Assembly (NCBI GenBank): GCA_009602725.1
Contig: WELB01000014.1
Coordinates: 374,600-394,599, forward strand
From: Spirogloea muscicola
Taxonomy: Eukaryota
DNA: 20,000 nt
Direction: 5' to 3'
Shown: piece after piece, positions 1 to 19,954 of the stretch
Position numbering within the stretch: the stretch's first letter is position 1
Layout of the letters: each line of letters opens with the position of its first letter
The notes under the pieces: model-generated
Told to the model about the DNA's origin: nothing
The model's input: the letters and a program-made list of their open reading frames with translations, nothing else
Databases searched by the model: none
Translations under genes and position numbers: made by a program

Positions 1-230
1 GGCCACCCATGTGGGCAATGGCGTGCCGACTGGTGGCAGCAAGCCACAGGCCATGGAGGCCGGGGAAGGCGCGGGCGGCAGTAGCGGCACGACAACTGAA
101 GCGTGCAAACGACTTCACTCAGAAGCTATTGACGATCTGTACACCAATGTAGACATCGACGTAGACATCAATGTAGACACAGAGACTGCGGCTGCTGATG
201 GTTAAAGGAGCGGCTGTGGAACCAACGGAC

Positions 231-456
231 AGGGAGCTCCAGCGGAAGGCGGCGGCGAAGCGGGCGGTGTCGAGGAAGGTGTTGGAGAGGAGGAGGGACT
301 TGACGCGGCGCGGGCGGTGCGCGGCGTAGAGCTGCGCCAGGAAGCCGCCGAGCGCGGTGCCGTAGACGTGCACGGCGTCGACGCGCAGCGCGTCCAGGAA
401 GCGGTCGAGGCCGGCGAGGTACTCCTGCCGCGTCCACAGCTCCGGCGCGTCCACCG
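231..456 (-). CDS. Maspardin (SPG21)-like alpha/beta-hydrolase fold protein, one internal exon (partial gene)
   Basis: Translation VDAPELWTRQEYLAGLDRFLDALRVDAVHVYGTALGGFLAQLYAAHRPRRVKSLLLSNTFLDT matches the maspardin core as I recall it (HL[FY]G[AT]SLGGFLAQ...HRPRRV.SL.LSN). Strong GC3 codon bias. Likely GT donor at 230-229. The 5' part is cut off by the N at 457. Confidence 0.85.
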
Positions 457-457
457 N
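457..457. other. Assembly gap (single N)
   Basis: N in the sequence; coding signal stops abruptly here. Confidence 0.95.
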
Positions 458-877
458 GTACTAAGCAAGGACTCGTAACCTGGTCAGTAGCCGCAAGTCA
501 GAGCTGCTGCTAAGTAAGCTGACCCCAGTGGCTCGGTAACCGCGAGACAGCACGTGGAGGTTGCTGACTGATGCCCAGACCACCGGACGGCCACTGACAA
601 GCCCTTTTTGTGCCCACCAGCTAAAGCCAGAGCAGGAGCGCTCTGGGGGGTGCCCCAGTTCCGTCGCCCAATGCATCCCGCGAACATCCTCCGGACACGG
701 ACTGGGCTGGCGGGGCCCGCCGTGATGCCGCTCTCCGCCGCTGCTCGGCCCGGCCCGTCGATCCCACTGCATCGGACGGTGCCCGACGGCCCCCGGACGG
801 AGGGCTTGGGGCCTAGGGCTTTTGTAGCCCCCCTCTCTTCATCTCATCGCCACGCCACGTACCGGGGGCCTACCGCA

Positions 878-918
878 CCGCCGCCGCCGCCGCCGCCGCC
901 GCGGCCGCCGCGGCGGCG
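878..918. repeat. (CCG)8 microsatellite plus GC hairpin in a CpG-rich promoter/5' region
   Basis: ccg x8 at 878-901. cgccgccgcgg-ccg-ccgcggcggcg inverted repeat at 894-918. Confidence 0.85.
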
Positions 919-932
919 CTGATCACCACGGG

Positions 933-992
933 CGTTTAGCGTTTAGTGATCCAGGGGATTAGGGGTTAACGGTTTACGGTTTCAGTTTCGGT
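933..992 (+). promoter_or_regulatory. Degenerate telomere-like (TTTAGGG-like/telo-box-like) heptamer cluster
   Basis: cgtttag cgtttag ... ggattag gggttaa cggttta cggtttc agtttc, with ~7-nt periodicity. No perfect TTTAGGG copy. Confidence 0.4.
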
Positions 993-1089
993 CAGCTAGC
1001 TCCTCCACTCAGTCAGTGAGAGCCCCCCTCGTCTATTGTGCTCACCTCCGTTGCAGATCCAGCACTGTGGACCTCTTTGATATACACTT

Positions 1090-2195
1090 ATGCCTTGCGG
1101 ATGCAAACCCCCCTTGACGTCCATCTGTGATGTGTTAGGAGGAGAAGTTGGTCATCGAATGAGCGCTCAGCATGGAGTGGAGGTGGTTAAGCCAGTCTGC
1201 CATGGTTGAATGTCACTTGGTACGACTGACTACAGCCCGAAAATGTAGCAGGTTTCCTCCATCTTCATGACTAGCGCACTCTGTGCACCTTTGCCTGTGG
1301 CAACTCTTTGCAGCGCTAGCTCGCACGAAGCCACTGCACAGTTGAGCTCTGAGTGCTTATGCTGCACACATATGGCTGACTCAGATTGCACTTCAGATGT
1401 GCACCCTTCAAATTGTCGATGTGCAACCGCTGGGATTGTGACATACACTTGCAGTACTGGCGGAGATCCAAAGCTGTTCTGATGGGACACACTATGTCCT
1501 GACGAGCTCTAGGTGGTACTTTCCTACTAAGTTGATTGCTTGGCATTTGCTTGCAATAATTGGCCAGGGCGTCCGCCTACTCATCTGTTCCTGAAATAGC
1601 AAAGCAAGCAGATAATCCTCGAGTGGTTTTTTCTGTGACCCAAGTTGATTGCTTGGCATTTGCTTGCAATAATTGGCCAGGGCGTCCGCCTACTCATCTG
1701 TTCTTGAAATAGCAAAGCAAGCAGATAATCCTCGAGTGAATTTTTCTGTGACCCAAGATGGGCTTGTGGGCAGCACTTGTTTAGTGCACCAGCCCACACC
1801 AACATTAGCAGCGAGCTCAAGTGTAAGCTCTACGTCACACATTGGCCAGCTCTTATTTACGGCATGGGAAGGAACGTCCCTGGACGAACTCTCTCTCATC
1901 TCATTAATCACCGTGTGCTGATTTTGTGAGTACTATAAGTAAAGGAGCTGCTGTACATTTGCGCCTCTACGTCTTTTGCATTTGTGGCCCCCTTCTCTCT
2001 GATGCGCAGTGTTACCTACAAGTACATGCCATCTCCTATAAGCCCTCCAGCGCCAGTGTTCAAGCTGCGCTCGACTTTTGCATGGCCTGCATTTGCGCAA
2101 CCCCAATGCCGTGCAATATGGAGTGCCGGATCGGCCATCCCTTGCTTAGCTTGCTTACTTGTGGCCCCTTCCACGTTGGCAGGCGGCCGCTATGA
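1090..2195 (+). CDS. Candidate small OB-fold protein, TPP1/Est3-like (spliced; first coding exon uncertain; may be a pseudogene)
   Basis: Phase-consistent exons 1455-1512 (ttgcag|...AG|gtggta), 1681-1822 (ggccag|...AGT|gtaagc) and 2010-2195 (ctgatgcgcag|...TGA) translate to LAEIQSCSDGTHYVLTSSRASAYSSVLEIAKQADNPRVNFSVTQDGLVGSTCLVHQPTPTLAASSSCYLQVHAISYKPSS...RRPL*. First coding exon is either 1090-1204 (166 aa total) or 1172-1244 (152 aa); both end in phase 1. Putative 5'UTR intron 858-1056. Confidence 0.45.
1529..1757. repeat. 113-bp direct tandem duplication (2 copies, 3 mismatches)
   Basis: aagttgattgcttggc...ctgtgaccc at 1529-1641 and 1642-1754, then aag. Confidence 0.95.
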
Positions 2196-2265: not shown

Positions 2266-3719
2266 TCACGACAATAGCGCCTCAGCAAGGGTCATCTTGC
2301 CACCTGCTGTCACTGTGTGGCCATGGCAAGGCACGAGTGCATCCCACTCCCAGTTGAGGATGCGCCGCACCTGCTCTTGGTACCGCTCTCGGCGCGCCAG
2401 CATGAAGGTCCGATAGAACGGCCGGTACACGCGGTCCATACCCTGCTTAAAGAGCCACGTTCCGCCTGGCGAGTCGGCCGGGTAGTTCCACCACAAGTCG
2501 GTCACGAAGAGCACGCCCGACGGACGATGGTGGAAGACCACCTGCACGCTCATCTACTAGTCAGTATGTCAAGCACAGAGAAGCTCTTCGGCAGCCGCAT
2601 GGAGCTTTGTGGAAGTCCGTGGTCAGGTTCCAAGCGAAGCAAGCAGGGCAGAGGCACGTCCAGACAGCATCCCACCTCATTGAAAAACGGCTTCCGGTTG
2701 AAGGGGTTGTGCTCGTAGTCCAGCCATGCAAGATCGAACTCGCCTTGCCAAGCCTCCGGCGCGACATTGTCCCAGCCGACTTCCTCCTGGATGCCCACTT
2801 TTGGCTTCTTCTCCTTGATGCCAGGACACCCTGCTCAACGTCCACGCCGTGCACCATGTTGTTGAGGCGGGAGACTCAGCAGTACTGGAGCAACATTGAC
2901 CAGTACTTGATGACGTTGTGGGTATGAGGTGGACGACTCAGCTTACCGTACGCTCTGGCCGCAGGGTAGGCATCAATCCACTGCTGTGCAAACCTGCACA
3001 CGAGATGGACACCAGGTCTCTTGCGCTCCTGAGCTCAACTTCAAGAACAAGCAAAGGAAGCTCTGCAATTCAAGAAAAGGTGGCCTAAAGGAAGAGCTAG
3101 CTCATCTTACTCCACTAGGAGCAGACTAAGAGGTCATAGGATAATGCGGGATGCATGGCGCGGGCATGCTTATGTTGAAGAGGCCGAGGAGAGGCTCTCA
3201 CATGCTGTGCTCGTAGTTGGGGGAGACGATGGAGCGCAGCGGCCCGAGCGCGTCAATGGCGTCGCGCAGCGGCTGGTCGAGGGGCACCGGGGAGTGCACC
3301 CACACGGAGCCGTCGGCGAGCCGCACGACGCCCATGCGCCCGCCGACGTCGATGCCCGTCCACATGTGCGCGCGAGGCGCCTCCCACACCTTGCCGGGCA
3401 CGATCTCCCGCAGGACGTCCCCCGTCGGGTTGGACCAGGTCCTCGGCAGCGGCGCGGAGGCCTTGGAATCGGCGGTGCCTCGCGTCGCCTGCGGCGAGCT
3501 CGATGCGCTGGCGACGACCGCTGCTCGGCCCCTGCTGGGCTTCCCGCGCGCCCCGAGCTCTGGTGCAGGCGAGGGGTCGACGACCCCATGACGCCGAGGC
3601 CACCCCACACGGCCGGACAGGAGTCCGGCGGCGCAGCGCCGGCTGCTGGCCAGCTCCCGAGCCACTCGACGGTGCTCGCGGGACGCAGCAGCGCTCCGGA
3701 GTCGGGGCGGGCCCGCCAT
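2266..3719 (-). CDS. DUF4336-type metallo-beta-lactamase-like protein, probably organelle-targeted (~331 aa)
   Basis: Exons 3719-3202, 2993-2947, 2830-2676 and 2541-2266, all GT-AG and in phase. Motifs IDVGGRMGVVRLADGSVWVHSP, IVSPNYEH, FFNEVVFHHRPSGVLFVTDLWWN and LVPCHG. The R/S/A-rich N-terminus resembles a transit peptide. Start codon inferred: the frame is open upstream to the gap, with a probable intron at 3941-3810. Confidence 0.85.
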
Positions 3720-4566: not shown

Positions 4567-4725
4567 GTGACGGCCAGGCAGCCGTCGCACGCCCCCCCCG
4601 CGCTCTCGCGGACGCCGCACAAGGAGCTCTCCGTCTCAACTACTAGCGGCCGAGCTGCAGCCCTCCTATAGCTGGTGGCGGCGGCCGTGACGGCAGTTGC
4701 GGCGCAGGGGGGGGCCGCAGCTGCC

Positions 4726-7700
4726 ATGATGAGTAGGAAAGACGAGGACATGGAGGACCTGCAGTTCCAAGTCGGCGACGGCGCCCAGGGAAAGAAGAAA
4801 GAGGAAGGAGAAGACGACGACGATGACGACGAGGGCGGCGGCGGCGACGACGACGACCTAGAGAATGACGAGGACGGGGTGCAGGAGGAGGAGGAAGACA
4901 AGGACGACGGCAAGGATGAGGAAGACGGGGAGGACGTTCTCAGCGAGGACGATGAGGAGGACTACGGGTTCGAGTACTCTGGAGCAGACGACGAGGAGCC
5001 CAGCTCCAGGCTGCCACAGGTAGCCGCGTGACCTCCCTGGCCGCTGGCTGCATCGCCGGGGTTGTGGTTCTCCATACCCTTGTCAACCTTGTCTGGAGGG
5101 AGCCGGGAGGGCAGCCCCTTTGCGCACCACTGTGGACTTTGATCACAAGCGTTGCTGCTCGGATCGATGCAGGCCAACTATACCATTCTCTCAGAGAAGG
5201 ACGTCTTACACCGGGAAGCGGAGGCCGTGGATAGCGTGTCCACTGTGCTGTCGGTGTCAAGGACAGAGGCTGGCATTCTGCTCCGGCACTTCAAATGGTG
5301 AGTTGGCAATTTGGCGATGCACTGCGTGTATACAGACATCATAGTCACTCTTGTTTGCCATCTCCTCACTTCATCGCTCTCCGTAGCCAAGCAAGCTGGA
5401 AAGTGACGTAGCTCAGAGAAGCTGATACTTTGAGAGCTGCTGCCCTTTCTCTGGTTAAGGAGCGTGAGTAGGGTTAATGACGAGTGGTTTGCGGACGAGG
5501 AAGCAGTGCGGAGGGCTGTGGGTTTACTATGTTCCTCATCTGATGCCAAGAGGGAAAGAAGTGAGGAGGTGTGTTTGCAATCACGTATGCTTATGTCTGA
5601 GCAGATTACTCAGAAGAGCATCAATTGAAGTGCAGGCTACGTACAGCTATCTGGTCTGCTTAGTGAGGTCGCTACTAGCCCCTAGACACAAGAAGGGAGG
5701 GCAATTTGCACATGGTGCGTCGGTCTCACAAGCCTGAACGTGCCTGTGCAGCTCACTTGCGGGATATGCTTTGAGTCCCATTCTGTGGACTACATGCATG
5801 CCCCAGCTTGTGCCACCCATTTCTTCTGTGAGGCTTGCTGGCAAGGTAAAGCACAAGTTGTGGTCACTCTGGGTAGAGGCCCTTCTGCTGTGTATGGTTG
5901 CCTTGTCAAGTAGCTCTCCTCTGTCAAGTAGCTCTGAATTACTCGCAAGAAGATTCTCACTTGTCTCATCTTCTGCCTACATAATGTTGCTTGGTTCATC
6001 TGTTTGCAGGTTACATGCATTCGGCCATAGGGGATGGGCCTGGCTGCCTGACTTTGCGGTGTCCAGATCCTTCATGTGGGGCAGCTGTTGGCGAAGACAT
6101 GGTGCTGTCACTTGTCGATGCTGAGCACCGTGCCAAATACACTCGATATCTTCTTCGGTCCTACATTGAAGACAATCGAAAGGTAGACAATGATATTCAA
6201 ACTTGGTGAAAGCATTTGGCCTGGCAATGCTGCTTGTAGTTATTGTCTTCACAATCACAATGTAGCAACACTGGTTGTCTTCACAATCACAATGTAGCAA
6301 CAGTGGTAGACATTCTCTCTAAGAATTGGTTGGCGTCGTGTGCTGTTAATACAGGCAAAGTGGTGTCCAGCCCCAGGTTGTGAGTATGCTGTGGAATATG
6401 AAGGTGGCACAGCGTCCAATGACATCATCTGCCAGTGTGGCCACAATTTCTGCTGGAATGTAAGCACAAAGCATAGCTGCTTGAGTGGACGCATGTCAAT
6501 GCATGTCAGAGAACCTTAGAAATGTGATACTTCACCTGAGGTTGTCTTGCAAGGGACTGTCATTTATAGTCTACTTTATAGTCCTCAGCTTTGAGGCACA
6601 GTGGTCAATGCTTCAGTATCAAGTCGAATGTTGTGAAGCAGCCAAAGCATGAGTGTCTTTCCTTGTTGTGCAGTGCTTGGAGGAAGCTCACAGGCCTGTG
6701 GATTGTGGCACTGTCGCTAAGTGGATACTCAAGAACAGTGCTGAGTCTGAGAACATGAACTGGTACTTTCAGGAAGCTGGCTTCGTCTGGCAGTAGGCCT
6801 TCTTCACTCCGCAGTGCTTGTTCGTCAAGTACATATGTGTAGCTGAATACACACACTTCTAATTGTTCACCTTCTTCCTGCTTACTTCTTTATTTCTACA
6901 GGATACTTGCCAACTCCAAGCCTTGTCCAAAATGTAAACGGCCCATTGAAAAGAATCAAGGGTGCATGCACATGAGCTGCACTCCTCCATGCAAATTCGA
7001 GTTTTGCTGGTCAGTCATCTGACTTAACTTGCTGACTCTACCCATCTGCAACGAGTCCCCTAGGAATGTTTGCGTACATTGGTACACATAGGCAGGCATG
7101 CATTTGGTGCAGATACTTAGATAGATCACTGATGGTAGTACTGCAAATTGATTGACCTAGATGAGAGAGCAGACGATCAATGATCACATAGCACAATCAT
7201 TGCTCAAGGATAGTTGGTGCTTGCGTGGCTTTCTTTCAGGCTGTGCTTGGGAGCCTGGGGAGACCATGGTGAAAGAACTGGCGGCTTCTATGCTTGTAAT
7301 CGCTATGAGACTGCCAAGCAAGAAGGAGTGGTAAGCAGAGTGGTTGTGGCGATCACGTAGGTGATAATTTTGGAATGTTGGTGATTGCGGAATTACTTGA
7401 AGCTCTTTCAACCAGATTAGCTTCAGGAGTGAAGTATGAGAAGCAAGTTGCTGCTCTGTTGCAAGCTCTGCTTGCGCTGTGCTTGAAGTGCTAGCTATTC
7501 AGAAGTTGCATGTCTAACCTGTGCCGGTGTGACCAACATTACAATCAGCTACAGCTTCACTGGTCCATCAAATTGACTGGCTAACAGTGTGGTATTTTTG
7601 CGGCTTGCAGTATGATGAGACAGAGAGGAGGCGTGAAATGGCAAAGAACTCCCTTGAACGTTACACTCATTACTATGAGCGTTGGGCCACGAATGAATCT

Positions 7701-9483
7701 GTATGACTCATGTCTGATTTACCATTGCAGCGTCATAATGTGACGTTCACATCTTGACTTTCTCAAGAGTGTCAAGGAGCAAGGAAATTCCTAAGAAGCA
7801 TTTGTCTTCCTTGACTGCTTGTGCGTGTGCAGTCAAGGATGAAAGCTCTGGAGGACTTGAGGCAGATGCTGCTTGACAAGGTAGTTGTGCAAATGGGACA
7901 CTGTACTGACATGGGCATTGGCATTGTGCTGCATGATGATGGAGAGCAACTTCTTATTATTGTTTTATGCCAAGCCTATGGACAAGCCTATGGACACAAG
8001 GCATATTCAAGTTCGAGTCTAAACTAGCACATTGCCTCGGCAGACTTGTGAGACCTGTTCTTTTAGTGCTCTGAATATCCATATACCTCTGGTCTACCAT
8101 TGCAGATTGAGATCTTGAGTGATAAGCAGTGCCAGCCTGTGTCGCAACTGAAGTTTGTTCCTGAGGCTTGGCTTCAGGTTAGCAATTTTCAAGAATAATG
8201 AGGTCCTAGCCACTCAACTCAGAAAGTGGTTGCAATCATGTAGCTGGCAGCTTGCCCAGCTAGCTAGTTGCTGTGTGCCATGGTTGTTTTGGCCTTGTTA
8301 AGAGCCATTGAGGCAGGCAGCATTGCTCAACAGCATATAGAGTCTTTTAAACAGTCTAGTTGCTGAGCAATGCTCCCATGAAGACTACTTGGCCAGATTT
8401 GATATCAAAGAAACGACTGCTGAAGCATCGAGCTAAGCATATTGTCCTACTTGCAGATTGTGGAGTGTCGGAGGGTCTTGAAGTGGACTTACGCCTATGG
8501 TTATTACCTTCCTGAGGCGGAGTCAGCTAAGCGAGTGTTTTTTGAGTATGTACAGGGTATGTAAGAGTGCATCTCAATTTTCTCACAGCCTTGGTGCTTC
8601 ATTGAGATAAGACAGCAATTACTAACCCTTTTCATCAAGAGGTGCAAGGAGGTTGCTGGAAGAATGACAATGCAGGGAGAAATGCTTGTACCTGATACTC
8701 TTCCTGGTGCTGTGTTGCTGCACTTGATTCTTCCTCAGGGGAAGCAGAGGCGGCATTGGAGCGACTGCACCAATGTGCAGAGAAGGAATTGAACGTTTTT
8801 CTGAACGGTGAAACGCCACATACATCGTTCAATGAGTTCCGCACCAAGCTTGCTGGTTTGACAAGGTTGCTATACGGCAGACCAGACATCGTAGCTTTAT
8901 CATAGATTTGATATCATGAGTGTATGCAGTCAAGGTGCATGTGCTGCATGGATCTGCACTGGGTTTGGTTACTGTCAACCATTAATTGAGTCACTAATCT
9001 CCACAGTGTTGCAAGCTGCAAATGCAGGCTAGTGACCTAGAGCTTCCACCAGTCACTTGTGCATGTGTCACTGATCAAGTGCGCAGGCTTTTCCACTGCA
9101 CCTGTAGCTGTAGTGATTGATGCGAAGAGACTCTGACGACATTTTGCTGCTTGTTGTCCAGTGTTACGAGGACTTACTTCGAAAACCTTGTGAAGGCGCT
9201 TGAGAACAACCTCGCCGATGTAGATAATTCGAGGTCCGCATTTGGCAAGGGTGCCAAAGCTGCGGGGGCCAGCAAGGGCAAGGCGGCAAAGCACCGCGGA
9301 GGGGGGCTGGGCGTGAGTAGCTCAGGGAGGGGTGGCGGAGGGCCGTCATTCATTGCGTCGAGGTCTGCAGCTGGCACTGGTGCGTCCTCCGAGGAGGACT
9401 ACTGGAGCTGCGAGCACTGCACGCTCGCGAACCCTGGGAGTATGCACGTGTGTGGCGTCTGTCGCCAGCCCCGCAGCTCCTGA
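4726..9483 (+). CDS. ARI8: ARIADNE-family RING-IBR-RING E3 ubiquitin ligase with C-terminal RanBP2 zinc finger (ARI8-like), ~648 aa
   Basis: 15 exons: 4726-5019, 5173-5297, 5460-5568, 5752-5845, 6010-6182, 6355-6459, 6674-6762, 6902-7009, 7240-7330, 7611-7700, 7833-7880, 8106-8177, 8457-8556, 8739-8865, 9162-9483. All GT-AG and in frame (1947 nt). Acidic N-terminus, RING1 [48 protein letters not shown]2 [21 protein letters not shown], Ariadne domain [11 protein letters not shown] and [16 protein letters not shown], and zinc finger [15 protein letters not shown]. Exact paralog assignment is tentative. Confidence 0.95.
6243..6306. repeat. 32-bp tandem duplication in ARIADNE intron 5
   Basis: ttgtcttcacaatcacaatgtagcaaca(c/g)tgg x2. 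Confidence 0.9.
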
Positions 9484-10079: not shown

Positions 10080-10183
10080 TTATGCTCTTAGTCGCCCATG
10101 TGTCCATCTAGACTCAGGCTAGCTTCCATTGACAGGAGGGTCTCGTTTAGCAATCAGGAGAGGATGTTTGCAGCCCCAATATA

Positions 10184-13100
10184 TTACACGAATGCTGTCA
10201 CAAGGCTCGGACGCCAGCAACTTGTGGACATTGTGGGTGCAAAGCTGAGCTCGAACATCTCTCGAGACGGCTGCTGCTGCATACTGCCGCTTAGGTTGAG
10301 GAAGCCCAGCAGCCCTGCAACAAGTTCAGCACTTGCGCGCGCCTGTGCACTGTTGGCTGGGTCTGACCAAAGGCGCGCCGCCAACTGCACCTTCCGCCGC
10401 TTGGACGTCGAGGAGATTCCCCACTTGGCATACAGCACCTCCCGTTCGCTTTTGCTGAACTTCCTTCCCAACCGCTTGGCTACCATATCCCGTTCCCGCT
10501 TCAGCTGCCGGGTGCTGGACCGAGCCGAATGCTAAGTGTCAGCTATTGAGCACATACATGACCCACTTGTCTGGGGCGGAAAGCCAGCATGATGCCCAAT
10601 GTCTAACTCTGAGGGGATGGAAATCAATTGCTGCCATGTAGAGCTCGCTCAGAAGAAGCCGACACTTGTGACAACAGCTGAAAGAGCAAGGCGAGAGCCT
10701 AACCTAGCGGCAATGATGCCGGGCTCCCCGTCGCCGTCCTCGAGGGCCTGGAGCATCTGGTTCTGGAGCCACAGGAGCCGGCGGTGCTCGACCTCCAGGT
10801 AGTTCTGGTCCGCCTTGGCGCCAGTGACGAGGAGGTAGAACTGCGAACGGTGCAGCAAGGACACCTGGCAGAGGGACCACAGCTCGATGATGGCCTGCTT
10901 CTCCTGCTCGAAATCAGGCGGCCCGGTGCACTCCTCTGGCTCCTCCTCCTCTGGCTTCTGGCTTGCCTCGAGCTCCAGGACCTGAGACTCGTAATGCAGC
11001 CACCCCCCATACAGGCGTCAGTACCACGAGGGCCACCAATCGATGAAGTTGTGGAGTCCCTCCAGCAATGTAACACCACTAAAAAGACGATTACAAGGGA
11101 TGGGCCCAGAACAGGCACTTGTATCCCGTCCAGACAGTGCTGGATGCTCACACAACTGCGTGTGTGAGCATCCAGCCTGCTACCAAGGGTACAAGCTGTC
11201 CACTGTCCACTGTCCATAAGCTGGCAAGGTTTGAGTGGCTTGCATACAAGTCTTTCTTTTTGGGGTATGAGACCTAGCATGCAGACCTTATGTCCAAAGA
11301 GCACGACTTGAGGCAATGCATATTGCTGCTCATCATCTGCACTGGCAGCTCAAGAGTGAGCTGCTCATTGCCTCCACCCAGCACACTGCCTGCTGCTACT
11401 ACTGTCAAGGAGAACATGAGGTTTTGGGGAGCACCTGGCAGACCAAGAGCTGCTTTTGGTAGTGCAGCTTGGCGACACGCTCTTTGAGCTCAGTCACGTA
11501 GTTCCGGATGCTCTTGATGTTCTCCTCGGCAGCCGTCTTGAACAGGCTCTGCATGCGGTGGACGTCCACCGACGTGCTCCGCACCACGCCACCCGAGGGC
11601 GACTGCGGCACAGCCTCCGCCTCTGCCGCCGACAGGGCGGCGCTGCCATTGATGCCGGCCCTGTCACCAGCCGCCGCCGTTGCATTCTCCTGGTCACGGC
11701 TGCTGGCAAAATAACTCCTGGGCGACTTCAGCCGCGAGTTGGCGCCGGGCCCCTCCAGTGATGCGCCCTGCGGCGACACCTGCGGCATGGACGCCCCTAT
11801 CGCACCCAGCACGTGCCGCACTGACGTCGCCGGTGCCGCCGCCGCCGCTGTGGTCGTCGGCGTCGGCTCCTGCAGCGAGGAGCCCCCATCTCTCAGGGCC
11901 TTGTGACCGGACGCGCCTCGCTCGTCGTCGCCCTGGTTGTCCAGGTCGCCGCACATGTTGTCCAGCGAGAGCTGCACGCTGGCCAGCTTCTCCTCGAGCG
12001 AGGCGATCGCCGCGTCCGTCTTCCCATCCGACTTGGAGATCTGGAGGCGCGAGAGCTCTTCTCGCAGCATCGAGGGGCTGTCGAGGTCGTTGACGGCGAC
12101 CCTGCTGGCCACCAAGCTGGGGTCTGCAGCACCGACTGCTGGTGGCGGCACGCCAGGGCCCTTAACCTTTTCGGCTTTCAAGGCCTGTATGTTCTTCAGC
12201 TCTTCCTGTAGGGGTTGAGAGGCACGCAAGACAAGAGCTGAGATTGTCAATGCAATCTGCAAATGCAAATGTGGAGAATACATCCGCAGATTGCACAACA
12301 CCGAGCCCAAAGTAAGTAGAAAGTCGTTTGCTGTAATGGAAAGAGGCACGACAAGCGCTTCCAATTGGATCTGCCTGCGGACATGATTGCAATCAAGTGG
12401 CACCACGGCGAAGGAAATGAGGAGGCGCAAGCCGGCTCCGATGACACACCTGGAGCCTCGAGATTGTGGAAGAGGCATCGTGGTTCATGCCCAGCTGCGC
12501 GAGCCGCAGGCACTCAATCTCCTTCTGCAGTGCCTCAATGGCCGAGCTGGCCTCCTCGCCAAGCTCGTCCTGCATGTGCTCCAGCTTCCGGATCTCATGC
12601 ACCAGGGCCAGCGAGGACTCCGCCCGGCTGCCGGCTGAGGCCCGCCGGGGCGGTAGCCGGCGCTTCTCCGCCGGCGAGTCCTTCTCCTTGTCGCCACTGC
12701 CACCGCCACCCAGCCCAATCTCCAGCAGGTGCTGCACAGGAGCCTTCTTGCGGAACGCGCCCGAGTGCCGCAGGAGCCGCCTCATGGACTCTGGCGACCA
12801 GCCCTTGCTGCTGCGGCTCCCCTTCACCTCCTGGTGTCAGGTGTCACCACTTTTTGAGATAACATCGTAACTCTCAGGCTCTTACTCACATGACAAGATG
12901 AGTAAGGCATGAAGAGGTCTGGGAGATACTTTGAGGAGGGTTGAGCCTTCACGGTGGCCCAGTCAGGATGAGCACTCCCAAACAGGGTCATGTCGAGATT
13001 GCTCTAAATAGCTAGAAGCAGTTCCGCCATTGAGCAGATGCAGTGGCACCAGCAAGCATTGCCAGGCAGCGAAGCCATGATGTATCAGCATCTTCTGCTC

Positions 13101-16100
13101 TCATGTTCGAAAGGCAGCACATTGGCGAGATAAGGGATGTATAGCGAGGAAATATGGACGCTTACAACAGATGCATCGCCGACTTTGGAGCGCAGGAGGG
13201 CCTTGGTAAGCTCCTTGACATGCGCCTGCGCTGCGTCGCGCTGGCTCTCTAGCTCCGCCTTCTCCATCTCGAGCTGCAAAAGCACAGCTACAGCTGCAAT
13301 GTCACAGGAGTTGAAGTGTGTCGGCAACTACTCTGAGCCCAAGCACAACCTGCTGAAAGTCAGATTCCATAGCTCTTGTCGCCGGACAAGCTGGTCAGCA
13401 ACGGACAAGGAGCACAGGCGCATTTAGGTCTAGAAGGTCGTGGACGCCATCGACTGCTTGGATAAGATTTGAAGGGAAGGCGTGGCAGGGCAGGCAGCAC
13501 TCACCTTCTGCAGCAGCACTGTCTTGTCCCGGAGCTCATTGGCTGGCGCACTAGCAAGCAACGCCACCTTCAGCCGCTCTACCTCACGCTGCAACTGCTT
13601 CACGAGCACCTTGTCCGACACAACCTGCGTGCAAGTGCTCCCGCAGCTCAAAAGGGCCTTCAAGACAAGAAGGAAATTTGCCGCTCTACCTCACTCTGTG
13701 GCTTGCATGCACACGACATTAAGGACAACTGTTAACAAACCCAGATGCAAAAGGGTAGGAGTGGCTTCCATGGTCTGAAAATGCTAACCAGGTTAATCTG
13801 GGCGCTGTTTGTGACCTCCTTGGCCTGCCTTGCAAATGACAGTGTGTTGCGCGTGTGGTCCACGTGACTTAGTGCCGGCGACATGGTGCACACAATGGCA
13901 GTGCGCGCATTGCCGCCAAGCGAGTGCTGCAGGATGCGTGTGAGCTTTGAGTCTCGGTAGGGTACATGTTGCCCCACACGCAACCGCTGGCCCCCGCTGC
14001 CACCACGCACGCAGCGTATGAGCAAGCGCCACCCCGCCGCAAGACATGCTCAGAGGCTCTCAGCATGAAACTGCTCAGTGGATGCATGGACACAAGGAGG
14101 TATGATTGCCAACTACCAAGTGCAGCGCATGTGCCTGCATCCTGCTACAGAGCTGGAGTCAGCATCACGAGCCCATCATCAACCAATGGACGCAGAAGGG
14201 TCTAGGCTTCATGTAGGGGGACTGAGGCTTTAAAATCTGGAGGCTGCGCCTGCCTCCGTATTGGCGGTGGTGAATGCAGATATTCATGGAGCAGGGGCTT
14301 AAGGTACAGGGTACAGATCCAAGATCAGGGTTCAGAGACCCGCACCTAAGCTTGCGGATGACCTGGCCAAGCGTCAGCAAGCTCTTGTTGATGTGCCCGC
14401 CCTCCTTGAGCCGCGCGCCCTCTGCCAGCGTCTGCGACACACGCTCGCTGCCCGCCAGGTCCACGAGGTTCTGCGCAAGCCCACTCAGCCCTCGAGTGAG
14501 GGCTTGAAGGCCATGAGGAAGCGATGTCCCCACAGTTGGCCCAGCAGCGGTGGTGCTGCCCCTTGCAGTCAGGCCCTTGGGGCCACAAACCTTGGAGGCA
14601 TCTAGCACCTGAGCATTGTGCTCCACAAGCGGCTGGAGTAGTATGGATCTAGGGTGAGGTCCTCGCAGGCCAAACCCTTTCGCTGTATGACTCACCAAGC
14701 TGGCCAGGAGCACCTGGCCTGATACACCATCAGGCGATTGTGTGGCCGTCTCTCGCGGGCAGCTCTCCACCGTCTGCAGTGCTCGCAGGGAGGCGGCAAA
14801 AGCCACCTCGTGTTAAGGGGCAGACGATGCCGAGTGACGTCAAAGAGCGCGCTACTTTCACACAGTAGCCTCGTGCGAGCAACTTCTCATAATCGCTGGT
14901 TGGGGAGGGAGAGCAACCACAAGTACCAGGCGTATGATCTGGTGAGAGCGAGAGCTTGTGTCGTTGAGCAGTGTCTCCCCAACCTGGCGCTGCGCTGCAT
15001 GCCAGCAACGAGTACCACAAGCGACCAGTCAGCCAAGACCAATTGATGCTTGCATTTCTGCACTATCTTGCCTGCTTTTACACGCGCCAGAAAATAAGCT
15101 CCCGGCCATACTCTGGGCCAATGCTGACAGCGTAAGAGTCGCGAGCAGAGAGACAGGAGCAGCAAAACTCACACTCGCACTCGGCAAGGACTTGCTGCAG
15201 ATGTGAGCTTGACTGGACCACCATCTCTGTCAGCCGCTCCACCACCGTCCCCCGCTGGACATGGGCCGCCGGCCCGCGGCACAGTCAGCAGCCAGCTGGG
15301 AGAACTCACCTTGCCAACGGTCCAGGTGTCGCAGGTGGCGGCACCTTGGGCGGATACGGGCAAGGGAAGGGGCCCTTACATCGGGGTCGTCGAGAAGGCG
15401 AAGGGGCCCACTGTCAAAGCTCAGCAGGTCCCGCACAACCTCATTGTAAATCTCAAGAGCTGACACACGCAGCAGGTACTCGCGGTGTGGCGTCTGCAGC
15501 CGCAGCGGCAGCGGCGGCGGGTCTCGCCAAGCGCTGTCAGGGCAACCGGCAAGGAGGGTGATGTGACGGCAAGACGGCAGAAGTAGCTCTGCCACTGTAG
15601 CAGGCGTGCATGATGCAGCACTTGCGGGTCAGCAGCGTAGCTTCGACCTCCTCGATCTTGGAAAAGATGTCGAGGACGGCGGCCTCCGTGATCGCCTGCA
15701 TTGTGTATGTCTTGCCACTGCTCGTCTGGCCGTATGCAAAGATGGTGGCTGCAAAAAAAGAAGATCAAGGGTCAGTGACCCACACACAAGGTGCAGCTTT
15801 GACAAAGTCGGCAGATGGGAGGGGTGGACAGCCACCGGCGCTCTTGCTGCCAATCAGCGCCCAGCTTTTCTTTCGGCGGTCAAGCTGCGGTCAACAGGGC
15901 ATGAAGAACGAGCGCGTGTAAGCCGGCACTGGGCATGCCAGGCGGGCAGAACCCAGCACAGTCCTCACCGTTGAGGCCGGTGAGGACAGACAGCACAACG
16001 TCGCGGGCGCCCTCCTCGTACACCTCCTGCGACGAGCACTCGGGCGCAAATACGCGGTCTGCATAGCCGCCAGCCACACCGCCGAGGCAGCGCCGCCAGC

Positions 16101-16625
16101 ATCCGACGGGTGAGTCAGCTTCAGCAGAGCCATCAGCGGCGCTGGCTGCGACCACAGCGATGCAAGCCCCTTCTTTGGAACACCGCCGTCGTACGGCAGC
16201 ACTGGTGTCCCGGCAGCTGCCAACGACTAGAGCTGCCAGCTGGCAGCAACGGACTGCCAGCTGGCAGCGACAGGACGTCTGCCTCTGTCACGTCTGAGCG
16301 GCGCAGCTTCAGGGCATGCCGCCTGCTCCAGCAAAGGGCCTCCGGCCAGGCCTCCGCAGATGATCCCCAAGCGTGCCGCGCTCTTGACGCATAGGTGCGA
16401 GCAGGCAATGCCCTCATGGCGGCAGCACGGGCTGACATGGGTGAGCTCACCGAAGTGGTAGACGGCAGGGTAGGGCAAGCGCTCCGGCAGGGGCTCGGTG
16501 AAGCGCAGCGAGTGCGGCGAGGGGCACTCCCACACGGCGCCGTCGCCGGCCGCCGCCTCCTTGGCGTTCAGCGGCCGCACGCGCACCGTGACGTAGATCT
16601 TCTCCTCCCCCATGTCCACCTTCAT
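10184..16625 (-). CDS. NACK1: Kinesin-7 of the NACK1/NACK2 (HINKEL/TETRASPORE) type, ~1009 aa
   Basis: 15 exons: 16625-16451, 16058-15969, 15748-15648, 15493-15380, 15254-15173, 14994-14927, 14773-14696, 14470-14346, 13996-13789, 13624-13505, 13273-13166, 12830-12450, 12205-11435, 10981-10704, 10514-10184. In frame (3030 nt). Motor motifs [40 protein letters not shown] and [18 protein letters not shown]-type stalk/tail motifs [69 protein letters not shown] and LYAKWGI. The true start may lie further upstream. Confidence 0.95.
16232..16267. repeat. Duplicated palindrome in kinesin intron 1
   Basis: gctgccagctggcagc (16232-16247, perfect 16-bp palindrome) and ctgccagctggcag (16254-16267), period 21. 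Confidence 0.8.
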
Positions 16626-16736
16626 TCCGCCGCCGCCGCCACCGCGGCCACCGCCGGCTCCAGCTAGCAGAAAGTGCGCACCCGCGCCGCCGCTGCCAGG
16701 GCTGCCGCCGCGGCGCCCCGGCGTGCCGTGCGCCGA

Positions 16737-16737
<1 letters not shown>

Positions 16738-16778
<41 letters not shown>

Positions 16779-16779
16779 N
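16738..16779. other. A41 run abutting an assembly gap (N at 16779)
   Basis: Homopolymer directly next to an N within a CCG-rich region; likely a contig-end artefact. Confidence 0.7.
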
Positions 16780-16902
16780 CGCCGCCGCCGACAGCTGTGG
16801 AGCTCCGCGGCGACGGCGGCGGCGGCGGCGCCTTCCAGACCGCCAGGCCGTCCGATCTCACGGCCTCCATGCCCGCCGCATATCGCGCACCGCCACCAAG
16901 GC

Positions 16903-17343: not shown

Positions 17344-19954
17344 TCAAGACTCCATGACGAGCTGGAACATGCCAGACTTGCACTCAGATGGTGACAAGAA
17401 GACGCACTTGCTGGGGCTGCCATCGTACGCCAGTTGCACGCAAGTGACAAGTTCGAGCCCAAGGCGCTCCAGAGTTGTCACTGCCGCATCGCGTAGGGCA
17501 CTGCCCTGCGCGCCTAGCCACCTGCTGGCGAAGGAGACAAGTAGCTGGCACACCCGCGGCGGCGCGTCTCTTGCACCCCACGCCTCGATCATCTCGAACT
17601 CCGCGCCCTCCACAGACAGCTTGAGCACGTCTACGCGGGCATGGCCAAGGCCAGCCATTGCTGCCGCCAGCGTCGTCACCTGAACAGCAACCTGCTCGGG
17701 CACCAGCTCGTATGGTGCCGCAATGGCCGGCAGTACTGTGAAGGTGCCCACTGGCCTCGCAGCTTGCAATACGGCGCGCGCAGTGGCGTTGCCGTCGTGC
17801 GCCCCCAGGCAGGCGTCGTGGATGACAACGTTGTCGGGCGCCAAGTGCTCGTCAAAGAACTGCTGAGCCCAGGGGGCGCCAAGCGGCGTGGCATCGAAGG
17901 CGTGCACAATGCAATTGTACCGCCCGGCAACTGTCGACTCCCAGGACAGGTCCTGACCGATGCCGCCTGAATACACGACACTGCTGTTGCCAAGGAATCC
18001 CTCGAGGAAGGCTGGCCATTGACCGGGGCCAGAGCCCAAGATTGATGCGGCGCCCAGGAAGCCGCGAAGGCAGATAAGCTCCGGCGTCGGGCCGTCGTAG
18101 GCTGCTGCGGCGCCCTGCAGGGCTGCCATCTCGAAAACGCACCGGCCGTAGCCACGCCCATCAACATCGCGGCGCACTGCGGCGGCCTCGGGGCCGGCCG
18201 CTGCATCGAAGATTGCCTCCCAGCCAGCTTCCCACGGCCCACGTGGATTGCACAGCTCCACGCCGTCGCCGCGGTAAGCCCAACCGCCGTCCGCGGCGCG
18301 CACCAGGGCCAGCGCCTTGTCGCCAACCGCCACTGGTTTGCATGGCCGGCACTTGGCGCCGTTCATGAATCCCCGGCTGCTCAGCGACACAACTTGCACG
18401 CCAGTTGGACGCAGCGGCCAGGCATACCGCCGCAGGCTCAGCACGCAGAAGGGCAGGTCAACCTTTGCAACCGCCACGCCACGCACCTCCAGCTGCGCTC
18501 GGAATGCTTGCTCCGAGTTCAGCGATCTGTAGCCAGCGCGCTGGATCTTGGGTAGCAGGCTCAACCGCGCCAGTGCAGCGCGGCTTGTGTTCATGTCTCC
18601 CATGCCAAAGCGGTCGTTGTAGCCGCCGTAGCTGCAGCCATGCGGCACACTGTACTTGCGTGGATTGTACGCCGCCAGCGTGTGTGGTGGTCCCGTCCAG
18701 AATGTGTCCACACGTGTACGCAGCACCCAGCTGTAGCTCACCCCAGCTGCTGCCTCGCGGTCGCTGATAAGCTTCAGGCAGCCCTCAACGAGGTTGAAGT
18801 ACTGCAGCAGGCCCTGCGGAGGCGCGGCAGGCAGGCATTCAGGGACAGGGCGAGCGGTGCCAGATGAGCAGAAAATATACAAGAAGGCACTCCAACCCTT
18901 AAACCTCGACATCACACATAAACATGCTCGTCTCAGGTCATTTGTAATAGCTTCAGGGCATTGTAATTGCCTGACTTGAACACAATTGCATTGTGAAGAC
19001 CTGTACGAATCTGAAAGATCTACAGCTCCTGCTCCAAAGCCTCAAGCGGAACCCTTGTGCTCCCAGAGTAAGAGCTCAATGTATTCGACCTGCAGGCCGT
19101 TTGGGGACCCTGACGCCCTGAGCACGGCCTGTGGAGCGCCGCGGTGCCCAATGGGCGTCTGCGCGAAGAAGCGCAGTGAGACGAGGTTCTGTGCGCCAAG
19201 CAGGACAGTCATCTTGTGCGTGTTCTCATCCACCGGCACATTAACGAGGACGTCAGCAGCCTCGAACGCACGTAGCACATGCTGCTTGATGGTGGGCCCA
19301 GTGAGCTCAAACATGCGCGCCCCGCCAACAAGACAGATGGCCACCCTGTTGAACTGCAAGAGGGCGCGGAAGCTGAAGCTGTTGAGCTACTTAGCATTGT
19401 TAAGCAATCAGCCTCAGGTGAGGCGACTGCTCAAGCTGCGCAACTTCAAAGAGCCGAGCGTGCCGCTCTGCCGAGCCGCTCCAGCCGCTCCGAGCTTAAC
19501 ACGCCGGCAGCATGCAGGCCTTTCTGCCATGCTAGCATCAGGTGGCGACAAAGGCAGACTCCGCTGCTCACCTTGGCGCTGTGCACGGCGGAGACGCGAT
19601 CCTCGTCCAACAGCGTGGGCTCATAAGACGGGCAAGGCGAGTCTGCGGCGTCACGCGCCGCCACTCCCAACGACGCCGCACCGCTCGCCTGCGGGACGGG
19701 GGCCTCCTTCTGCTCAGTGTAAGCTGCACCGGAGATCGTCCAAAGCTGGCAGGGTAGCTGGTGGTCGTCTACGGCGGCACCTGCACGTCGTCGGCGATGA
19801 GGAAGTATGGCAGGCCGGTGGCGGCGGCGATGACGAGCAGCGCGGCGCAGGCCAGCAGGCGGGCGCATGTGGGGCCCCCGAACTGCAGCCGCAACTGGGG
19901 TCCCACGGCCGCCGCCGCCGCCTCCTCCGCCGCCTTCGCCACCGCCGCCGCCAT
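17344..19954 (-). CDS. Type II membrane protein: plant uncharacterised conserved domain fused to a C-terminal METTL24/FkbM-like SAM methyltransferase (~681 aa)
   Basis: Exons 19954-19781, 19709-19572 (alternative acceptor 19745), 19353-19090 and 18813-17344. N-terminal TM helix LLACAALLVIAAATGLPYFLI. Conserved plant motifs RVAICLVGGARMFELTGP, SPNGLQGLLQYFNLVEGCL, WVLRTRVD, GGYNDRFG, LNSEQAF and GAKCRPC. Methyltransferase motifs VVYSGGIGQDLSWE, CIVHAFD and TTL...LGHARVDVLKLSVEGAEF. Confidence 0.85.

What the first reader, a model, noticed from the sequence alone, without database searches (positions are those of the whole stretch)
1090..2195. Hidden spliced gene encoding a possible TPP1/Est3-like telomerase-recruitment OB fold in a plant-lineage genome
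Seen in sequence: three short exons (1455-1512, 1681-1822, 2010-2195) join through canonical GT-AG sites in matching phases. They give ...SDGTHYV...RASAY...GLVGSTCLVHQ...CYLQVHAISYKP. A CpG/CCG-rich 5' region and a likely 5'UTR intron (858-1056) lie upstream, and the body is CpG-poor like the other gene bodies. From memory, the human TPP1 (ACD) OB fold reads ...SDGTHSV...TREAL...GTEGRLLLLQD...FYLQVDRFSLLP, with the same motif order and similar spacing (54 vs ~50 residues from SDGTH to xYLQV). Established: TPP1, Tpz1, Est3 and Tetrahymena p50 recruit or activate telomerase through this fold. To my knowledge no clear ortholog is described in land plants. Inference: this may be a stand-alone, Est3-sized (152-166 aa) green-lineage TPP1-like protein. 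The RPA70N OB fold also has an SDG.H motif and is the main alternative.
Basis: partly seen in the sequence, partly recalled or inferred. Interest (0 to 1): 0.88.

Follow-up and report, generated by a model that had tools for sequence, protein, structure and literature searches.

The report
Broken TPP1-like gene copy in alga
In a green alga of the group likely closest to land plants, this stretch is interrupted by an extra base, a stop codon and a tandem repeat, and is likely a dead duplicate of a small gene whose remains resemble the telomerase-recruiting protein TPP1/Est3; a sister copy that may be intact could be seen only in part, and the resemblance rests on motifs alone.

Summary
Sequencing contigs show three diverged copies (A = window, B, C). 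The first exon likely runs 1314-1512, not 1455-1512. In the window it carries one extra base (near 1350, against C) and a TGA (1439), and a real 113-nt tandem repeat follows. A and B differ at neutral density (5 silent, 24 replacing codons); B also lost the SDG aspartate. About 100 bases of C are visible; they read open and occur in an RNA run. Motif order and Trp-Asp-Leu spacing (53 and 60) fall between TPP1 and Est3, and the motif chain arose in 0 of 400 simulated windows (post hoc). No search supports the family: Pfam, PDB, 1.84 billion proteins and metagenomes gave no relative, the fold model was useless (pLDDT 36), RNA contigs cross the last intron unspliced, and codon bias was not significant. 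Verdict: probable pseudogene of a TPP1/Est3- or RPA70N-type OB gene. Its value is as a pointer to copy C.

The parts
859..1056 (+). Putative 5' intron of the transcription unit (GTACCG ... TTGCAG), CpG-rich, with degenerate telobox-like words
   Evidence: Sequence; copy B's alignment starts at 1051. No RNA joint seen.
1057..1182 (+). Putative exon, mostly untranslated; candidate start ATG 1172 followed by a phase-2 donor at 1183
   Evidence: Inferred. Copy B aligns over 1051-1195 with 18 changes and 4 gaps, then not until 1308. Four ATGs lie upstream in 1057-1171, which weakens this start.
1314..1512 (+).
   Evidence: Acceptor 1313 kept in copy B; copy C reads open from about 1321 to 1422 in one frame (loose ends, aligned by eye)
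1348..1351 (+). Frame break: one base more than copy C
   Evidence: 30 loose letters of C before 1352 align to 31 window bases; B has no gap here, so it shares the break
1439..1441 (+). In-frame TGA between the LQIV and SDGTH motifs
   Evidence: copy B has TGG at these bases
1513..1567 (+). Likely original 55-nt intron (GTGGTA ... GGCCAG)
   Evidence: B aligns without gaps to 1570; a GTGG donor is also used by the neighbour. Short against the neighbour's 113-221-nt introns.
1529..1754 (.). 113-nt tandem duplication that copies the acceptor and the first 74 nt of the next exon; absent from copy B
1681..1822 (+). Coding exon (in frame only from the second acceptor)
   Evidence: B has 55 letters where a single copy would have 57
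1823..2009 (+). Putative 187-nt intron (GTAAGC ... GCGCAG)
   Evidence: same donor hexamer as one in the neighbour's RNA-guided model; crossed unspliced by RNA contigs
2010..2195 (+). Last exon: LQV motif, a possible helix, then a Cys-rich tail and stop
   Evidence: all 6 listed differences in 2010-2110 are shared by both RNA contigs, so they are private to the window (5 replacing, 1 silent)

Best explanation
The window holds an interrupted reading frame (extra base, TGA, tandem repeat) that is likely a pseudogene left by genome multiplication, descended from a small gene predicted to encode a stand-alone TPP1/Est3-type OB fold. Shown: three copies of the region exist; A and B share a frame break that C lacks; A and B have each gained further lesions and differ without sign of selection; the neighbouring DUF4336 gene is open. 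Inferred: C (about 20% diverged over the roughly 100 bases seen) is the retained copy, of about 175-180 residues. Inferred from the family only: that protein would use the OB surface to bind the TERT N-terminal domain and help engage telomerase, as Est3 does, without the long POT1/TIN2-binding tail of TPP1. The window copy itself most likely makes no working protein.
For: Three copies and their lesions. A versus B in the proposed frame: 5 silent and 24 replacing codons among the listed differences; density 0.06-0.21 per base in exons against 0.09-0.18 in introns, while a neighbour's sister proteins are 93% and 87% identical. The two sister copies each lack one of A's lesions in the way that opens one frame (C one base shorter, giving a 198-nt phase-2/phase-2 exon; B TGG for TGA). 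C against A at 1393-1422: 6 of 8 mismatches at third codon positions (p 0.02). Trp-Asp 53 and Asp-Leu 60 residues lie between TPP1 (50, 56) and Est3 (65, 69), computed from the conserved trio W98/D148/L204 and W21/D86/L155 (PMC2775752, passage); the same passage says these two families are not linked by simple profile methods. Motif chain 0 of 400 simulations. C's 5' block is held by a 145-nt contig of the RNA-like run.
Against: No Pfam TPP1 or Rep-A_N match at E up to 10 for single pieces or the read-through. No PDB OB fold. 2 hits in 1.84 billion proteins, both repeat artefacts, although proteomes of this organism or a close kin and of a related alga are in the sister collection. No hits. 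In C's other visible stretch (1321-1350) only 1 of 7 mismatches is at a third position (hand count), so pooled 7 of 15 is not significant. Codon signal not significant. RNA contigs cross the last acceptor unspliced, one of them probably from C. The Trp is seen only in C; A and B have Ser. No acidic TEL-like patch (9 acidic of 174). C beyond 1422 was not seen, except through shared differences if RNA record 24 is C.
Confidence: 0.45

Rival explanations
1. There is no coding gene: the region is the long 3' untranslated end of the opposite-strand DUF4336 gene plus spacer, and the motifs and splice sites are chance.
For: RNA contigs run unspliced from 2365 to 1741 and from 2365 to about 1920; no homologue anywhere; neutral A-B divergence; codon signal not significant; no annotated protein matched although neighbours are annotated.
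Against: Ordered motif chain 0 of 400, joined in phase by canonical sites; family-like spacing; sister copies lack the lesions in the frame-opening direction; a separate CpG-rich 5' region with an intron-like stretch.
Confidence: 0.22
2. It is a decayed copy of another OB domain of the same structural class, RPA70N (PF04057) or the N-terminal domain of plant DUF936 proteins, acting as a protein-docking module unrelated to telomerase.
For: The LQ-hydrophobic and SD(G/S) motifs and their 24-residue spacing are, from my recall, shared by these families; two earlier scan notes found the same TPP1/RPA70N ambiguity in other lineages (unchecked).
Against: From recall, these families have a shorter stretch after the SD motif and lack the N-terminal Trp and the aromatic-LQV strand; no Pfam hit to either; there is no room for the rest of an RPA70.
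Confidence: 0.17
3. It is a decayed small gene of some unrelated, lineage-restricted family, and the OB-like motifs are coincidental.
For: No family hit of any kind; Cys-rich tail (10 Cys in 174), not a feature I recall for TPP1 or Est3.
Against: Four motifs in the expected order and spacing.
Confidence: 0.1
4. One reading: the window copy is a working gene of 152-166 residues that uses acceptor 1454 and the second acceptor 1680 and so avoids all three lesions.
For: The frame is formally open; acceptor 1454 is a good TTGCAG kept in B.
Against: It drops the LQIV block that C conserves; B does not align over 1195-1308 and has 4 gaps in 1051-1195; candidate first exon 1172-1243 ranks last of six frames; window-private changes in exon 3 are 5 replacing to 1 silent; an identical upstream acceptor at 1567 would have to be skipped.
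Confidence: 0.06

Closest known systems
Human TPP1/ACD OB domain (Pfam PF10341; PDB 2I46)
   Different: No Pfam or PDB match. No room for the POT1-binding domain, linker and TIN2 motif (PMC8653790, passage). No acidic TEL-like patch. The window copy is broken.
Budding-yeast Est3
   Different: No sequence match. Est3's programmed +1 frameshift is not echoed: the break near 1350 has no CTT-AGT-T word and is absent from copy C.
RPA70 N-terminal OB domain (PF04057) and plant DUF936 N-terminal domain (PF06075)
   Same: LQ-hydrophobic strand followed about 24 residues later by SD(G/S) (recalled).
   Different: Longer middle part, Trp and LQV motifs (comparison recalled); no following domains; no Pfam hit.

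Membership tests
TPP1/Est3/Tpz1 (PF10341) | Match to the Pfam TPP1 profile | tested here: inconclusive
   No hit at E up to 10, but only pieces and a read-through that lacked the last exon and held 56 intron codons could be scanned
TPP1/Est3/Tpz1 (PF10341) | Conserved Trp, Asp, Leu trio with family spacing | tested here: inconclusive
   Asp and Leu present in the window, spacing 60; Trp only in copy C, spacing 53 (window has Ser; another Trp lies 36 before the Asp); B has Gly for Asp. Assigned by motif, not by alignment.
TPP1/Est3/Tpz1 (PF10341) | Five-stranded OB barrel with capping helix | tested here: inconclusive
   Single-sequence model of the read-through: mean pLDDT 35.9, pTM 0.23; no fold search was run on it
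TPP1/Est3/Tpz1 (PF10341) | Intact, expressed reading frame | tested here: not met
   Window copy: extra base, TGA, tandem repeat; no spliced joint listed. Open question for copy C.
TPP1/Tpz1 shelterin type | POT1-binding domain and C-terminal TIN2/Poz1 motif after the OB fold | tested here: not met
   58 residues follow the conserved Leu; the neighbour's stop is at 2266
TPP1/Est3/Tpz1 (PF10341) | TEL patch / binding to the TERT TEN domain | not testable with these tools
   No intact protein or TERT of this organism in hand; TEL residues are not conserved outside mammals (PMC8653790, passage)
RPA70N (PF04057) | Match to Rep-A_N profile, followed by three DNA-binding OB folds | tested here: not met
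   No hit; no room for further domains
DUF936 N-terminal domain (PF06075) | Match to the profile | tested here: not met
   No hit, with the same limit of broken input

The most novel reading that the evidence does not exclude
Copy C is an intact, expressed, unannotated Est3-sized TPP1 orthologue: the algal sisters of land plants kept a stand-alone telomerase-recruiting OB protein that gene callers miss, and land plants either lost it or still hide it.
Probability: 0.25. Interest if true: 0.8.

Novelty: new member of a known kind. Interest (0 to 1): 0.42.

Why it matters
Papers read here state that no TPP1 homologue is identified in Arabidopsis and suggest that POT1a or TRB proteins do its job (PMC8450087, PMC6356271, PMC11577926, PMC11206666; passages). 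An intact TPP1/Est3-like gene in a zygnematophyte would date the loss or divergence to the origin of land plants, give a close seed for profile searches in mosses, ferns and seed plants, and make 'how do plants bring telomerase to telomeres' directly testable. As it stands the window gives only a broken copy and a pointer to where the intact one may be.

Tried and rejected
No whole genome is held for this window, so copies B and C could not be fetched. No RNA holder listed on record; run X5 is a guess, treated as RNA because its contigs skip CT..AC stretches of the neighbour. Both read-laying runs are used and their tables were cut (40 of 321 difference rows, 12 of 63 gap rows, 24 of 82 loose ends; 27 of B's 32 differences). 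Parts without RNA cover (1073-1340, 1475-1608) are not taken as evidence. Pfam: the Fumble hit (E 0.024) and the PDB pantothenate-kinase and enoyl-CoA hydratase hits lean on intron read-through and are rejected. The two library hits are LRR and TPR repeats. The ESM Atlas gave no answer, so no language-model look-alikes are known. The fold model was too poor for a fold search; no complex prediction was sent. The codon model looked supportive (rank 1 of 6) until a stop-free null removed it. Rescue introns ending at 1454 from donors 1399, 1415, 1421, 1438 fail on phase or are 40 nt or shorter (hand check). A programmed frameshift like EST3's was considered and rejected. An alternative open frame for copy B through its extra C (3 of its 4 private changes silent) is judged chance. 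No TPP1, Est3 or RPA70N sequence could be obtained from any tool, so no direct alignment was made. Literature: 7 full-text searches listed no paper whose title or abstract start reports a plant or green-algal TPP1; 11 papers were seen as keyword passages only, no supplements were opened, and most subscription papers are outside the library.

Full report
Setting. The window is from a plant-lineage eukaryote: it holds a kinesin with DUF3490 and a DUF7796 gene. The DUF7796 protein's best hits are three EukProt proteins with SM-prefixed ids at 93, 87 and 60%, then a jgi/Mesen1 protein at 40%, then land plants. I read this as a zygnematophyte alga; that label reading is recalled. The finding lies between a maspardin-like hydrolase on the minus strand (Abhydrolase_1; the maspardin name is recalled) and a convergent DUF4336 gene, which joins into about 330 open codons through canonical introns near the RNA joints.

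The observation. The three exons and their phases are as described and give 128 codons. The CpG pattern holds. Two things were missed. A 113-nt tandem repeat (1529-1641, 1642-1754) copies the acceptor and 74 exon bases; the first acceptor gives an early stop. The repeat is in the DNA reads: a 76-nt contig spans its junction at single depth and a 97-nt contig has about double depth. And upstream of 1455, in the same frame as SDGTH, lies a block with HIW and LQIV motifs, cut off by TGA 1439.

Sister copies. DNA runs of one sample show three copies at similar depth. Copy B aligns over 1051-1195, 1308-1570 and 1741 onward. It lacks the repeat, has TGG at 1439-1441, but has an extra C after 1426, Gly for the SDG aspartate, and 55 letters where 57 are expected in the next exon. 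Among the listed A-B differences, 5 codons are silent and 24 replacing in the proposed frame, at intron-like density. So neither A nor B shows selection. Copy C was laid only at 1352-1392 (5 differences), with 30 loose letters shown on each side. Before 1352 those 30 letters match 31 window bases, so C is one base shorter and has Trp where A and B have Ser. Behind 1392 they keep CTLQIV with 6 of 8 mismatches at third positions (p 0.02); before 1352 only 1 of 7 is (hand count). A 145-nt contig of the RNA-like run X5 has C's letters on both sides; its strand is unknown.

Revised gene. With X at the two breaks the frame from 1315 to the stop is 174 residues, Trp position to Asp 53 and Asp to Leu 60. 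TPP1 has 50 and 56, Est3 65 and 69, from the conserved trio in PMC2775752 (passage). The start is uncertain; ATG 1172 with donor 1183 fits by phase, but four ATGs precede it.

Chance. The chain LQ-hydrophobic, SDG-x-H, aromatic-LQV in order occurs once in the window and in 0 of 400 simulated windows. A codon model trained on 4.3 kb of neighbours found the true frame in 31 of 37 test pieces and ranked the proposed frame first, but 155 of 1000 stop-free null sets did as well.

Family tests. All were negative or uninformative. Pfam: no TPP1, Rep-A_N or DUF936 at E up to 10. PDB: no OB fold. HMMER over 1.84 billion representatives: 2 hits, both repeat proteins. Word-seeded searches with exons 2 and 3: 0 of 89 and 0 of 16 candidates. 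Metagenome scans: 0 of 599 and 0 of 595 stretches. Fold model: pLDDT 35.9. The queries were broken or partial, the read-through lacked the last exon, and TPP1 and Est3 themselves are 17.6% identical and not linked by simple profiles, so these blanks do not refute the idea. They do mean that no tool result names the family, and that no copy of this gene is annotated in the proteomes searched.

Expression. X5 lists 5 joints, all in DUF4336. Two of its contigs (1741-2365, matching B; 1982-2365 plus 63 loose letters, probably C) cross the last acceptor unspliced. They are most simply the neighbour's 3' end. Contigs drop rare forms, so a weak plus-strand transcript is not excluded, but none is shown.

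How it most likely works. Shown: A is interrupted three times; B is interrupted too; C lacks the shared break in the part seen. Inferred: after the genome was multiplied, the A/B lineage of this gene died and C was kept. Inferred from family knowledge only: the kept protein would be an Est3-like stand-alone OB fold that docks on the TERT N-terminal domain; TPP1 does this through its OB fold (PMC8745574, PMC8653790; passages). It has no room for TPP1's POT1- and TIN2-binding parts.

Known and new. Four papers, seen as passages, list no TPP1 in Arabidopsis; one notes that the PF10341 fold occurs in a number of unicellular organisms. Seven searches listed no report of a plant or green-algal TPP1. 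Earlier scan notes show no look-alike of this stretch and two cases in other lineages where TPP1 and RPA70N could not be told apart (unchecked). Membership in PF10341 is not established here.

Verdict. A real but broken gene-like structure with a fair motif case for the TPP1/Est3 class and no database support. Interest 0.42, almost all of it from the chance (about 0.25) that copy C is an intact orthologue, which one look at the assembly would settle.

Noticed in passing
window 119-800 (minus strand): Maspardin-like alpha/beta hydrolase (Abhydrolase_1, E 1e-7; name recalled). A single N at 457 breaks it, its likely 5' part at about 520-700 lies in two frames, and 531-576 is a multi-copy stretch with many loose ends. 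It may be another decaying copy or an assembly join.
   Followed up: partly
window 2266-3719 (minus strand): DUF4336 gene, open over about 330 codons, spliced in the RNA-like run; unspliced contigs extend at least 525 bases past its stop, over the candidate gene's last two exons.
   Followed up: partly
window about 10100-16900 (minus strand): Kinesin motor exons followed by DUF3490 (NACK/HINKEL-like kinesin-7 by recall), many introns.
   Followed up: no
window 17344-19386 (minus strand): DUF7796 protein fused to a weak FkbM-type methyltransferase domain (E 3e-4, below cut-off). Full-length cover (92-96%) only in five top hits, including the SM-labelled and Mesen1 proteins; land-plant hits cover about half.
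   Followed up: partly
window 4672-9483 (plus strand): A long CpG-poor gene with an acidic N-terminal stretch and a C-terminal RanBP-type zinc finger (E 0.0015, below cut-off); not identified.
   Followed up: no
window 930-995: Degenerate telomere-like words (TTAGGGG, GGTTTAC, GGTTTCA) inside the putative first intron.
   Followed up: no
window 1529-1754: The two repeat copies differ at 3 of 113 bases, all in the exon part, so the duplication is recent but not brand new.
   Followed up: yes
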